From Escherichia coli (lineage in GTDB: Bacteria > Pseudomonadota > Gammaproteobacteria > Enterobacterales > Enterobacteriaceae), in assembly GCF_024700885.2 (NCBI RefSeq), contig NZ_CP117016.1: DNA of 64,000 nucleotides. One strand, written 5' to 3'. Each line of letters starts with the position of its first letter. Position 1 is the stretch's first letter. This document shows, piece by piece, positions 1,376 to 3,353 of this stretch. Below the pieces are notes generated by a model. It did not search any database, was not told where the DNA came from, and was given only the letters and a program-made list of their open reading frames with translations. The position numbers and the translations under genes were made by a program.

Positions 1376-1501
1376 TTTAAGTCGAACACAATAAAAATTT
1401 AATTCAGCCTTCGTTTAGGTTACCTCTGCTAATATCTTTCTCATTGAGATGAAAATTAAGGTAAGCGAGGAAACACACCACACCATAAACGGAGGCAAAT
1501 A

Positions 1502-1597
1502 ATGCTGGGTAATATGAATGTTTTTATGGCCGTACTGGGAATAATTTTATTTTCTGGTTTTCTGGCCGCGTATTTCAGCCACAAATGGGATGACTAA
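1502..1597 (+). CDS. mgtS: small membrane protein MgtS (31 aa)
   Basis: Hand-translated short ORF MLGNMNVFMAVLGIILFSGFLAAYFSHKWDD, below the ORF-track length cutoff; hairpin plus T-run follows at ~1625-1664. Confidence 0.85.
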   Translation: MLGNMNVFMAVLGIILFSGFLAAYFSHKWDD

Positions 1598-1672
1598 TGA
1601 ACGGAGATAATCCCTCACCTAACCGGCCCCTTGTTACAGTTGTGTACAAGGGGCCTGATTTTTATGACGGCG

Positions 1673-1772
1673 AAAAAAAACCGCCAGTAAACCGGCGGTG
1701 AATGCTTGCATGGATAGATTTGTGTTTTGCTTTTACGCTAACAGGCATTTTCCTGCACTGATAACGGATCGT
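1673..1772 (-). ncRNA. mgrR: sRNA MgrR (PhoP-dependent), boundaries approximate
   Basis: Minus-strand intrinsic terminator (hairpin ccgccggtttactggcgg + T8) at 1673-1698; PhoP-box-like direct repeat GTTTAA-N5-GTTTAA on minus strand at 1804-1821; expected position between mgtS and dgcZ. Confidence 0.6.
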
Positions 1773-1803
1773 TGACACAGTAGCATCAGTTTTCTCAATG
1801 AAT

Positions 1804-1821
1804 GTTAAACGGAGCTTAAAC
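1804..1821 (-). promoter_or_regulatory. PhoP-box-like direct repeat upstream of mgrR
   Basis: Minus-strand sequence gtttaa gctcc gtttaa read directly. Confidence 0.5.
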
Positions 1822-2712
1822 TCGGTTAATCACGTTTTGTTCGTCAATAAACATACAGCGATTTCTTCCGGTTTGCTTACCCTCATACATTGCCCGGTCC
1901 GCTCTTCCAATGACCACATCCAGAGGCTCTTCAGGAAATGCGCGACTCACACCTGCAGTCACGGTAATGTTGATATGCCCTTCAGAATGTGTGATGGCAT
2001 GGTTATCGACTAACTGGCAAATTCTGATACCTGCACGACATGCTTCTTCATCATTAGCCGCTTTGACAATAATGATAAATTCTTCGCCACCGTAGCGATA
2101 AACCGTTTCGTAATCGCGCGTCCAACTGGCTAAGTAAGTTGCCAGGGTGCGTAATACTACATCGCCGATTAAATGCCCGTAGGTATCATTAACCAATTTA
2201 AATCGGTCAATATCCAACAACATTAAATAAAGATTCAGAGGCTCAGCGTTGCGTAACTGATGATCAAAGGATTCATCAAGAACCCGACGACCCGGCAATC
2301 CCGTCAAAACATCCATATTGCTACGGATCGTCAGCAAATAAATTTTGTAATCGGTTAATGCCGCAGTAAAAGAAAGCAACCCTTCCTGAAAGGCGTCGAA
2401 ATGCGCGTCCTGCCAGTGATTTTCAACAATAGCCAGCATTAATTCCCGACCACAGTTATGCATATGTTGATGGGCAGAATCCATTAGCCGAACGTAAGGT
2501 AATTCATCGTTATCGAGTGGTCCCAGATGATCAATCCACCGACCAAACTGGCACAGTCCATAAGAATGGTTATCCGTTATTTCTGGCTTACTGGCATCTC
2601 TCGCGACTACGCTGTGAAACATACTTACCAGCCACTGGTAGTGGGCATCGATAGCCTTATTGAGATTTAACAAGATGGCATCAATTTCCGTTGTCTTCTT
2701 GATCATTGCCAC
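1816..2712 (-). CDS. dgcZ: diguanylate cyclase DgcZ (zinc-sensing)
   Basis: 298-aa ORF containing the GGEEF motif (RYGGEEFIII). Confidence 0.9.
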   Translation of the reverse strand: MAMIKKTTEIDAILLNLNKAIDAHYQWLVSMFHSVVARDASKPEITDNHSYGLCQFGRWIDHLGPLDNDELPYVRLMDSAHQHMHNCGRELMLAIVENHWQDAHFDAFQEGLLSFTAALTDYKIYLLTIRSNMDVLTGLPGRRVLDESFDHQLRNAEPLNLYLMLLDIDRFKLVNDTYGHLIGDVVLRTLATYLASWTRDYETVYRYGGEEFIIIVKAANDEEACRAGIRICQLVDNHAITHSEGHINITVTAGVSRAFPEEPLDVVIGRADRAMYEGKQTGRNRCMFIDEQNVINRV

Positions 2713-2960: not shown

Positions 2961-3353
2961 TTATTTCTGCAAATGAGTGACCCGAACGACGGCCGGAGCG
3001 CTTTTCTTATCCAGACTTCCGCTAATGTTGATCAGCTGGTCCGGCTGAACTTCTCGTCCATCAAAGACTGCCGCAGGAATAACAACATTAATTTCACCGC
3101 TCTTATCGCGAAAAACGTAACGGTCCTCTCCTTTGTGAGAAATCAAATTACCGCGTAGTGAAACCGAAGCGCCATCGTGCATTTTTTTTGCGAAATCAAC
3201 GGTCATTTTTTTTGCATCATCGGTTCCGCGATAGCCATCTTCTATTGCATGAGGCGGCGGTGGCGCTGCATCCTGTTTTAATCCGCCCTGGTCATCTGCC
3301 AACGCATAAGGCATGACAAGAAAACTTGCTAATACAATGGCCTGAAATTTCAT
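2961..3353 (-). CDS. ydeI: periplasmic OB-fold stress protein YdeI
   Basis: 130-aa ORF with signal peptide; K-12 neighbourhood. Confidence 0.85.

What the first reader, a model, noticed from the sequence alone, without database searches (positions are those of the whole stretch)
1502..1821. Convergent PhoP-regulated pair: mgtS small protein and mgrR sRNA
A 31-aa ORF matching MgtS and a minus-strand terminator with an upstream PhoP-box-like repeat consistent with MgrR are both present. This is ordinary core-genome content, noted because neither appears in the ORF track.
Basis: partly seen in the sequence, partly recalled or inferred. Interest (0 to 1): 0.15.

Follow-up and report, generated by a model that had tools for sequence, protein, structure and literature searches.

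The report
Known E. coli mgtS–mgtT / mgrR locus

Summary
Confirmed and ordinary. The window is E. coli chromosome.

- **mgtS:** 1502-1597 (+) encodes a peptide identical to K-12 MgtS. It scores 80.6 bits against the NCBIfam equivalog NF033842 (cut-off 35).
- **mgrR:** 1673-1770 (-) is the 98-nt sRNA MgrR, with one SNP relative to K-12 b4698. The Rfam model for this RNA (RF01407, STnc560) scores 281.9 bits (gathering score 55).
- **Arrangement:** the genes are convergent, each with its own one-directional terminator. The locus is found in 5416 of 5426 complete E. coli genomes.

Three corrections or additions:

1. The MgrR 5' end is at 1770, not 1772.
2. The PhoP box conserved across 76 Enterobacteriaceae sequences is CGTTTA-ACATT-CATTGA at 1795-1811 (-), 12 nt upstream of the -10 element. 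The repeat ending near 1821 shares only its middle half-site. Its outer half-site is the last codon and stop codon of dgcZ.
3. It overlaps the mgtS stop codon, runs through the mgtS terminator, and ends antisense inside the MgrR terminator.

Comparison among Escherichia species shows no protein-level constraint on mgtT: 16 nonsynonymous changes, 2 synonymous, 1 frameshift. Nothing here is new; interest is low.

The parts
1401..1417 (+). Putative PhoP box of the mgtS promoter: AATTCA-GCCTT-CGTTTA (weak upstream half-site, strong downstream half-site)
   Evidence: Conserved block (A/G)ATT(C/A)A-N5-yGTTTA in the alignment of mgtS upstream regions from 42 distinct enterobacterial sequences. It lies 12 nt upstream of the -10 element. 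PhoP binding was not tested here. PhoQP dependence of mgtS-mgtT transcription is reported in PMC11429745.
1430..1435 (+). mgtS -10 hexamer TAATAT; predicted transcription start near 1443
   Evidence: Read from the sequence. TA..(A/C)T is conserved. The transcription start is inferred, not measured.
1491..1495 (+). mgtS Shine-Dalgarno sequence GGAGG, 6 nt before the ATG
   Evidence: Sequence; GGAG is conserved.
1502..1597 (+). mgtS (yneM) CDS: 31 aa, one hydrophobic (transmembrane) segment, stop codon TAA
   Evidence: ORF. (NCBIfam NF033842 equivalog, 80.6 bits against cut-off 35, covering 1-31 of 31). (identical to RefSeq mgtS b4599).
1597..1701 (+). mgtT CDS, 34 aa. Its ATG shares the A of the mgtS TAA (TAATG). 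It reads through the mgtS terminator and ends (TGA, 1699-1701) antisense inside the MgrR terminator stem.
   Evidence: ORF. (RefSeq 'protein MgtT', b4775). (detected by ribosome profiling and tagging, Weaver et al.). (operon mgtS-mgtT; no deletion or overexpression phenotype). (no NCBIfam model). (ORF not conserved outside Escherichia; 16 nonsynonymous, 2 synonymous, 1 frameshift within the genus).
1625..1665 (+). Intrinsic terminator of the mgtS transcript: hairpin 1625-1655 (GGCCCCUUGU...ACAAGGGGCC) followed by UGAUUUUUAU
   Evidence: Fold. Paired in the Rfam consensus structure line. A Term-seq 3' end at MG1655 1,622,804 (+) maps to window 1660 (PMC7815308 supplement; coordinate offset).
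1673..1770 (-). mgrR: the 98-nt Hfq-dependent sRNA MgrR (Salmonella STnc560)
   Evidence: RF01407, 281.9 bits, gathering score 55. (K-12 b4698 coordinates; one SNP at 1767 = MgrR nt 4, C here and U in MG1655). (fold -25.9 kcal/mol, z = -2.9). (STnc560: about 90 nt, 29-fold Hfq enrichment, in the ydeI/ydeE spacer).
1736..1766 (-). MgrR 5' stem-loop (nt 5-35)
   Evidence: A hairpin of different sequence is retained in representatives of other genera.
1703..1734 (-). Single-stranded centre of MgrR: A-rich (ARN)-type Hfq distal-face motif (about nt 37-52) and the seed U55-A68 (1703-1716) that pairs with eptB and ygdQ mRNAs
   Evidence: Unpaired. The motif and seed are defined experimentally in PMC6239178. 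The sequence here is identical to K-12.
1673..1699 (-). MgrR Rho-independent terminator: 8-bp stem, UUUA loop, U8 tail (Hfq proximal-face site)
   Evidence: 7 consensus pairs across 76 sequences, one with A-U to G-C compensatory change in 21 sequences. A Term-seq 3' end at MG1655 1,622,824 (-) maps to window 1680.
1777..1785 (-). mgrR extended -10 element TGcTACTGT (-15 to -7 relative to the start at 1770)
   Evidence: T, G, T, A and T of TGnTAnnnT are invariant or nearly so in 76 sequences.
1795..1811 (-). Conserved PhoP box of mgrR: CGTTTA-ACATT-CATTGA (-41 to -25), 12 nt upstream of the -10 element
   Evidence: GTTTA is at least 90% conserved, and the second half-site yrTTkA is conserved, across 76 Enterobacteriaceae sequences. 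Binding was not tested. PhoP/PhoQ dependence of MgrR is cited from Moon & Gottesman 2009 in PMC6239178.
1817..1822 (-). Additional upstream half-site AGTTTA, one helical turn further out.
   Evidence: match at 1806-1822. (dgcZ ORF ends at 1816). Conserved only in Escherichia.

Best explanation
This is the E. coli mgtS-mgtT / mgrR locus, lying between ydeE and dgcZ.

**How it works.** Low Mg2+ activates the PhoQ/PhoP two-component system. Phospho-PhoP then binds a box that replaces the -35 element of each of two facing promoters.
- The plus-strand promoter makes a transcript of about 220 nt that encodes MgtS. MgtS is a 31-residue inner-membrane protein that protects the Mg2+ importer MgtA from FtsH-dependent degradation and also acts on the PitA phosphate symporter, raising intracellular Mg2+.
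- The minus-strand promoter makes MgrR, a 98-nt Hfq-bound sRNA. Its single-stranded seed pairs with eptB, ygdQ and other mRNAs and represses them.

**Termination.** Each transcript ends at its own one-directional intrinsic terminator. The primary 3' ends (about 1660 on the plus strand, 1673-1680 on the minus strand) face each other without overlapping.

**mgtT.** A second small ORF starts on the mgtS stop codon. It can be completed only on transcripts that read through the mgtS terminator. It is translated in K-12, but it shows no protein-level conservation and is probably incidental.

**Shown here:** the identity, coordinates and structures of all parts; conservation of promoter geometry; conservation of the gene pair across genera.
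**Taken from the literature:** PhoP dependence, Hfq binding, targets, and MgtS function.
For: - **Identity:** Rfam RF01407 scores 281.9 bits and is the only Rfam hit in the 64 kb. NCBIfam MgtS equivalog scores 80.6 bits against a cut-off of 35. The region is 453/455 identical to MG1655, where mgtS, mgtT and mgrR are annotated at the corresponding positions.
- **Distribution:** present in 5416 of 5426 complete E. coli genomes.
- **Terminators:**. Published Term-seq 3' ends map to 1660 (+) and 1680 (-).
- **Promoters:** both have a GTTTA-containing box, exactly 12 nt, then a -10 element, and both are conserved across genera.
- **Pair linkage:** mgtS lies convergent and within about 100-215 nt of the mgrR 5' end in 44 of 79 loci from about ten genera, while the flanking ydeE, dgcZ and ydeI vary.
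- **Literature:**
  - Convergent, PhoPQ-dependent transcription (10.1101/2021.06.30.450655).
  - MgrR PhoP/PhoQ dependence, Hfq sites and seed (PMC6239178).
  - mgtS-mgtT operon, PhoQP-dependent (PMC11429745).
  - MgtS inhibits FtsH-dependent degradation of its transporter (PMC12648545).
  - STnc560 and yneM transcripts in the same Salmonella spacer (PMC2515195).
Against: - Nothing substantive contradicts this reading.
- The PhoP boxes deviate from the (T/G)GTTTA-N5-(T/G)GTTTA consensus. Each has one good and one degenerate half-site, and such matches are not enriched in the window.
- No expression or binding data exist for this particular strain.
- The original papers defining MgrR regulation and MgtS function (PMC2841474, PMC5465934, PMC6351178) were not available to read. 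Those points rest on secondary citations.
- The Term-seq MgrR 3' end (1680) lies 7 nt inside the annotated end (1673). I did not resolve this difference.
Confidence: 0.96

Rival explanations
1. The minus-strand RNA is a longer transcript of about 214 nt spanning 1591-1804, as the Rfam model's extent suggests, rather than the 98-nt MgrR.
For: The RF01407 model is 214 positions long and matches end to end at 1804-1591. Its consensus includes a second hairpin, which is the reverse complement of 1625-1655.
Against: - The conserved extended -10 element at 1777-1785 puts the transcription start at 1770, inside the model.
- Positions 1771-1804 are promoter: they include the second PhoP half-site.
- A strong terminator with a U8 tail ends at 1673, and the second hairpin has no U-run on the minus strand.
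- RefSeq annotates 98 nt. The Salmonella northern band is about 90 nt. The Term-seq 3' end is at the first terminator.
- The model evidently includes flanking sequence.
Confidence: 0.02
2. mgtT is a functional, selected third gene, making this a three-component low-Mg2+ module in which MgtT protein has its own role.
For: - It is annotated in RefSeq.
- It was detected by initiation-complex ribosome profiling and epitope tagging.
- It is induced by low Mg2+ in a PhoQ-dependent way.
- The TAATG/TGATG overlap and the first roughly 20 codons recur in several genera.
Against: - Deletion and overexpression have no phenotype.
- No protein family model exists for it.
- Among Escherichia species there are 16 nonsynonymous changes, 2 synonymous, and a frameshift in E. 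whittamii.
- Outside Escherichia the ORF length ranges from under 20 to 66 codons, with unrelated C-termini.
- The conserved N-terminal codons coincide with the mgtS terminator stems (RPL = CGGCCCCTT; KGP = AAGGGGCCT), so the RNA structure explains their conservation.
- The mapped mRNA 3' end (1660) lies 41 nt before the mgtT stop codon.
- Kluyvera has only 6-9 nt between mgtS and mgrR and no such ORF.
Confidence: 0.12
3. The GTTTA repeats are chance matches, and one or both genes are not directly PhoP-controlled in this strain.
For: The degenerate PhoP pattern is not enriched in the window: 23 hits against 15.6 +/- 4.1 expected. Each box has one poor half-site.
Against: - Both boxes are conserved across genera at a fixed 12-nt distance from the -10 element.
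- Published reporter and RNA-seq data show PhoQ dependence for mgtS-mgtT and for MgrR.
- The promoters here differ from K-12 at only one position (1396), which lies outside the box.
Confidence: 0.02

Closest known systems
E. coli K-12 mgrR (b4698) = Salmonella STnc560 (Rfam RF01407), a PhoP-activated class II Hfq-dependent sRNA
   Same: Same locus, strand, length (98 nt), 5' hairpin, A-rich ARN motif, seed, terminator and promoter. It differs from MG1655 at 1 of 98 positions.
   Different: Only MgrR nt 4 (C here, U in MG1655). C is the Rfam consensus.
E. coli K-12 MgtS/YneM (b4599; NCBIfam NF033842), a 31-aa inner-membrane regulator of MgtA and PitA
   Same: Identical amino-acid sequence, the same Shine-Dalgarno sequence, and the same position after ydeE.
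   Different: One upstream SNP at 1396 (A here, G in MG1655), 5 nt upstream of the putative PhoP box.
E. coli K-12 MgtT (b4775), a small protein found by ribosome profiling of stalled initiation complexes
   Same: Identical 34-aa ORF overlapping the mgtS stop codon.
   Different: None in sequence. The comparative analysis here adds that the ORF spans the mgtS terminator and shows no protein-level constraint.
Canonical PhoP-activated promoters (e.g. mgtA, mgrB, phoP): a (T/G)GTTTA-N5-(T/G)GTTTA box in place of the -35 element
   Same: A direct repeat with 11-bp periodicity overlapping the -35 position, at a fixed distance (12 nt) from the -10 element. One half-site matches GTTTA exactly at each promoter. 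The consensus itself is from my own knowledge of the PhoP literature.
   Different: The second half-site is degenerate at both promoters: CATTGA for mgrR and AATTCA for mgtS.

Membership tests
MgrR / STnc560 sRNA (Rfam RF01407) | Covariance-model score at or above the curated gathering score | tested here: met
   281.9 bits against 55, E = 1.8e-64, model positions 1-214 of 214.
MgrR / STnc560 sRNA (Rfam RF01407) | Sequence and position equivalent to the experimentally defined E. coli mgrR gene | tested here: met
   Maps to K-12 b4698 with 97 of 98 positions identical, between mgtS/mgtT and dgcZ.
MgrR / STnc560 sRNA (Rfam RF01407) | Hfq-type architecture: single-stranded A-rich (ARN) motif, accessible seed, Rho-independent terminator with a U-tail | tested here: met
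   The fold shows a 5' hairpin, an unpaired centre and an 8-bp terminator with U8. The features are as defined in PMC6239178. The terminator is kept in 75 of 76 homologues, with one compensatory pair. Invariance of the 21-nt seed block among those homologues follows from the search design and is not evidence.
MgrR / STnc560 sRNA (Rfam RF01407) | PhoP/PhoQ-dependent expression and Hfq binding in vivo | not testable with these tools
   Literature only.
MgtS (YneM) small protein (NCBIfam NF033842) | Equivalog HMM score above the curated cut-off over the full length | tested here: met
   80.6 bits against 35, residues 1-31 of 31. 100% identical to b4599.
MgtS (YneM) small protein (NCBIfam NF033842) | Translatable ORF with a ribosome-binding site and a single hydrophobic helix | tested here: met
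   GGAGG lies 6 nt before the ATG. Residues about 6-24 (NVFMAVLGIILFSGFLAAY) are hydrophobic.
MgtS (YneM) small protein (NCBIfam NF033842) | Stabilises MgtA and modulates PitA | not testable with these tools
   Literature only.
PhoP-activated promoter | PhoP box (T/G)GTTTA-N5-(T/G)GTTTA overlapping the -35 position | tested here: inconclusive
   Each promoter has one exact GTTTA half-site and one degenerate half-site. The pattern alone is not above chance. Both boxes are conserved across genera at 12 nt from the -10 element.
PhoP-activated promoter | PhoP binding and PhoP-dependent activation | not testable with these tools
   Reported for the K-12 locus, which is nearly identical.
MgtT small protein (RefSeq b4775) | Identical ORF at the annotated position, overlapping the mgtS stop codon | tested here: met
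   1597-1701; identical to WP_211180496.1 / YP_010051185.1 by position and sequence.
MgtT small protein (RefSeq b4775) | Conservation as a protein (purifying selection) | tested here: not met
   16 nonsynonymous changes, 2 synonymous and 1 frameshift among four Escherichia lineages. The ORF is variable or absent in other genera. The sample is small, so this is indicative only.

The most novel reading that the evidence does not exclude
Translation of mgtT may act as a regulatory device rather than produce a useful protein.

- The mgtT ORF covers the whole mgtS terminator hairpin and U-run. A ribosome following RNA polymerase closely into mgtT could therefore suppress hairpin formation.
- That would set the fraction of mgtS transcripts that read through across the 3' end of mgrR (antisense overlap 1673-1701 and beyond).
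- The result would be cross-talk between the two PhoP-induced genes, by transcriptional interference or duplex formation.
- On terminated transcripts, which lack a stop codon, it would also lead to tmRNA rescue.

The data here neither support nor exclude this beyond the geometry.
Probability: 0.07. Interest if true: 0.4.

Novelty: already known. Interest (0 to 1): 0.07.

Why it matters
It matters little as a discovery: this is one of the best-characterised small-protein and small-RNA loci in E. coli. There are three practical points.

- It shows what length-filtered ORF tracks miss: two annotated small proteins and an sRNA within 320 bases.
- The Rfam model for this sRNA spans 214 nt. That includes part of the promoter and the neighbouring gene's terminator, so hit coordinates overstate the RNA.
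- The annotated mgtT ORF looks comparatively like a by-product of a terminator. That is a caution for small-protein annotation.

Tried and rejected
- **Primary papers.** I tried to read the papers on MgrR regulation and MgtS function (PMC2841474, PMC5465934, PMC6351178). None is held, so I relied on later papers that cite them.
- **STnc560 = MgrR.** A literature search for the two names together found nothing. The link rests on the Rfam hit landing on the annotated mgrR, and on Sittka et al. placing STnc560 and the yneM transcript in the same ydeI/ydeE spacer.
- **Promoter scan.** The generic sigma-70 scan found neither promoter. This is as expected for PhoP-dependent promoters, which lack a -35 element.
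- **PhoP pattern.** A PhoP-box pattern search alone cannot establish the boxes, because hits are not enriched.
- **Consensus folding.** RNAalifold on the MAFFT alignment recovered only the terminator, because the variable 5' hairpin is misaligned. My automated tally of 5' hairpins and unpaired seeds (21 and 22 of 76) is unreliable, because weak 3-bp pairings in the MFE structures defeat the criteria. I rely only on the ten representative folds printed there.
- **mgtS mRNA fold.** The whole-mRNA fold is not more stable than shuffles (z = -0.85). Only its terminator hairpin is meaningful.
- **Longer RNA.** I considered and rejected the idea that the 214-nt Rfam extent reflects a longer RNA (see rivals).

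Full report
**What is there**

The window is E. coli chromosome.
- 1380-1830 is 100% identical to many strains and is found in 5416 of 5426 complete E. coli genomes.
- The first 25 kb is 100% identical to several strains.
- Around the finding, the genes are ydeE (188-1375, +), dgcZ (1816-2706, -) and ydeI (2961-3353, -).
- Aligned to MG1655, 1376-1830 differs at 2 of 455 positions: 1396 and 1767. K-12 annotation therefore transfers with an offset of 1145 relative to locus L002.
- Transferred coordinates: mgtS 1502-1597 (+), mgtT 1597-1701 (+), mgrR 1673-1770 (-).

**Check of the observation**

- The 31-codon ORF at 1502-1597 is present. It is preceded by GGAGG at 1491-1495. It scores 80.6 bits against the NCBIfam MgtS equivalog, whose cut-off is 35.
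- On the minus strand, an 8-bp G+C-rich stem (1699-1680) with a U8 run ending at 1673 is detected by the terminator scan and in the fold.
- The Rfam scan of all 64 kb gives a single hit, RF01407 (STnc560), at 1804-1591 (-), with 281.9 bits against a gathering score of 55.
- STnc560 was described in Salmonella as an RNA of about 90 nt, enriched 29-fold with Hfq, in the ydeI/ydeE spacer. A yneM (= mgtS) transcript of about 190 nt lies beside it (PMC2515195).
MgrR begins at 1770, not 1772.

**Anatomy of MgrR**

The 98-nt RNA folds into three parts (-25.9 kcal/mol, z = -2.9):
- a 5' hairpin (nt 5-35);
- an unpaired centre;
- the terminator.

The unpaired centre carries the A-rich ARN-type motif and the seed U55-A68 (window 1703-1716). 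These were mapped experimentally in PMC6239178.

To obtain relatives, I scanned one genome per species for the 21-nt block around the seed and found 79 loci in about fifteen genera of Enterobacteriaceae. Invariance of the seed in that set is therefore by construction.

Independent of the search key:
- the terminator is retained in 75 of 76 distinct sequences, with an A-U to G-C compensatory pair in 21 of them;
- the 5' hairpin is retained with quite different sequences in the ten representative genera that I folded and inspected.

**Promoters**

- **mgrR.** The alignment of 76 upstream regions shows a conserved yGTTTA-N5-yrTTkA block, then 12 nt, then an extended -10 element, TGnTAnnnT.
  - In the window these are CGTTTA-ACATT-CATTGA (1795-1811, -) and TGcTACTGT (1777-1785, -). 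This places the transcription start at the annotated G at 1770.
  - Its outer half-site is conserved only in Escherichia and coincides with the last codon and stop codon of dgcZ (GTT TAA, 1816-1821). It may be an accident of the neighbouring gene.
- **mgtS.** The promoter has the mirror arrangement: AATTCA-GCCTT-CGTTTA (1401-1417), 12 nt, TAATAT (1430-1435). It is also conserved.
- **Strength of the evidence.** As a pattern alone, PhoP-like repeats are not enriched in the window (23 found, 15.6 +/- 4.1 expected). The evidence is the conservation and the fixed geometry.
- **PhoP dependence.** This comes from the literature.

- **What mgtT is.**
  - RefSeq annotates mgtT (34 aa) at 1597-1701.
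  - Its ATG shares a base with the mgtS stop codon (TAATG).
  - It was found by ribosome profiling of stalled initiation complexes and confirmed by tagging.
  - It is co-induced with mgtS in a PhoQ-dependent way and has no deletion or overexpression phenotype.
- **Terminator inside the ORF.** The ORF contains the whole mgtS terminator: hairpin 1625-1655 plus UGAUUUUUAU.
- **Mapped 3' ends.**
  - Published Term-seq data place a plus-strand 3' end at MG1655 1,622,804, which is window 1660. That is 41 nt before the mgtT stop codon.
  - The minus-strand 3' end maps to 1680, and the annotated mgrR end is 1673.
  - The two primary transcripts therefore end facing each other without overlapping.
  - Only read-through mgtS transcripts contain a complete mgtT, and its last 29 nt are antisense to the MgrR terminator.
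- **Comparative pattern** (a small sample, so indicative only).
  - The pattern looks like a terminator rather than a coding sequence. Among four Escherichia lineages the ORF carries 16 nonsynonymous and 2 synonymous differences, plus a frameshift in E. whittamii.
  - In other genera the ORF ranges from under 20 to 66 codons, with unrelated C-termini. In Kluyvera only 6-9 nt separate mgtS from mgrR.
  - The conserved 'RPL...KGP' residues are simply the two arms of the hairpin.

**Conservation of the pair**

- mgtS lies convergent to mgrR and close to it in 44 of 79 loci. These include Escherichia, Citrobacter, Salmonella, Kosakonia, Kluyvera, Phytobacter, Pluralibacter and Yokenella.
- The pair stays together although the flanking ydeE, dgcZ and ydeI come and go.
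- In Enterobacter, Lelliottia, Leclercia, Silvania, Siccibacter and some others, mgrR stands alone in the DNA held, with its PhoP box intact.

**Mechanism**

- **Shown here:** the identities, boundaries, structures and promoter geometry.
- **From the literature:**
  - Low Mg2+ activates PhoQ/PhoP, which turns on both promoters.
  - MgtS inhibits FtsH-dependent degradation of its Mg2+ transporter and thereby raises Mg2+.
  - MgrR, bound to Hfq on two faces, represses eptB, ygdQ and other mRNAs through its seed.
- **Inferred:** the mgtS transcription start near 1443, and the view that mgtT is incidental.

**Verdict**

The finding is correct and already known. Interest is low. The only mildly non-obvious points are these:
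- the mgtT ORF spans the mgtS terminator;
- the PhoP box sits more precisely at 1795-1811;
- the Rfam model extends beyond the RNA itself.

Noticed in passing
window 1597-1701 (with 1625-1665): The annotated small-protein gene mgtT contains the entire mgtS intrinsic terminator. A published Term-seq 3' end (window 1660) lies 41 nt before the mgtT stop codon, so a complete MgtT needs terminator read-through. Among Escherichia species the ORF shows 16 nonsynonymous changes, 2 synonymous and 1 frameshift.
   Followed up: partly
window 1591-1804 (-): The Rfam RF01407 model (214 positions) is more than twice the length of the 98-nt sRNA. It also covers part of the promoter (including the second PhoP half-site) and the reverse complement of the mgtS terminator and mgtT start. 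Hit coordinates from this family overstate the RNA.
   Followed up: yes
window 1816-1822 (-): The outermost GTTTA half-site upstream of mgrR is the last codon and stop codon of dgcZ (GTT TAA). No terminator is evident between the end of dgcZ and the mgrR promoter, so dgcZ transcription may run into mgrR.
   Followed up: partly
window 1396 and 1767: These are the only two differences from MG1655 in 1376-1830. One is A for G, 5 nt upstream of the putative mgtS PhoP box. The other is MgrR nt 4, C for U; C is the Rfam consensus.
   Followed up: no
L023:1396-1565 and L023:2990-3159 (Enterobacteriaceae bacterium RIT691): There are two mgrR copies 1.6 kb apart on the same strand. The copy next to mgtS lacks the conserved PhoP box and -10 upstream sequence; the other copy has them.
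   Followed up: no
L005, L009-L011, L013, L014, L028-L030, L032, L035, L036, L040-L042, L047, L049, L058, L060, L061, L063, L065, L067, L069, L070, L074, L076-L078: In Enterobacter, Lelliottia, Leclercia, Silvania, Siccibacter and Huaxiibacter, mgrR (with an intact PhoP box) has no mgtS, ydeE, dgcZ or ydeI nearby in the DNA held. I could not check whether mgtS exists elsewhere in those genomes.
   Followed up: partly
L019, L038, L050, L057, L071, L072, L080 (Kluyvera and relatives): Only 6-9 nt separate the mgtS stop codon from the mgrR 3' end. There is no separate mgtS terminator hairpin, so the MgrR terminator region may have to serve both convergent genes there.
   Followed up: no
L008 (MAG 'Caldithrix sp.') and L075 ('Chryseobacterium sp. 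18061'): These contigs carry enterobacterial mgtS-mgrR loci. L008 has E. coli-identical MgtS and spacing, and L075 closely resembles Citrobacter sp. 18056 (L062). They look like contamination or mislabelling in the public assemblies.
   Followed up: no
L001:2937-4603 (E. coli E2865): In this strain dgcZ, the gene next to mgrR, is split by an IS1 insertion.
   Followed up: no
window 1816-2712 (-): The mechanical ORF for dgcZ starts at a GTG (298 aa). RefSeq K-12 starts 2 codons later at the ATG (296 aa; window 1816-2706), and the NCBIfam model aligns from residue 3.
   Followed up: no
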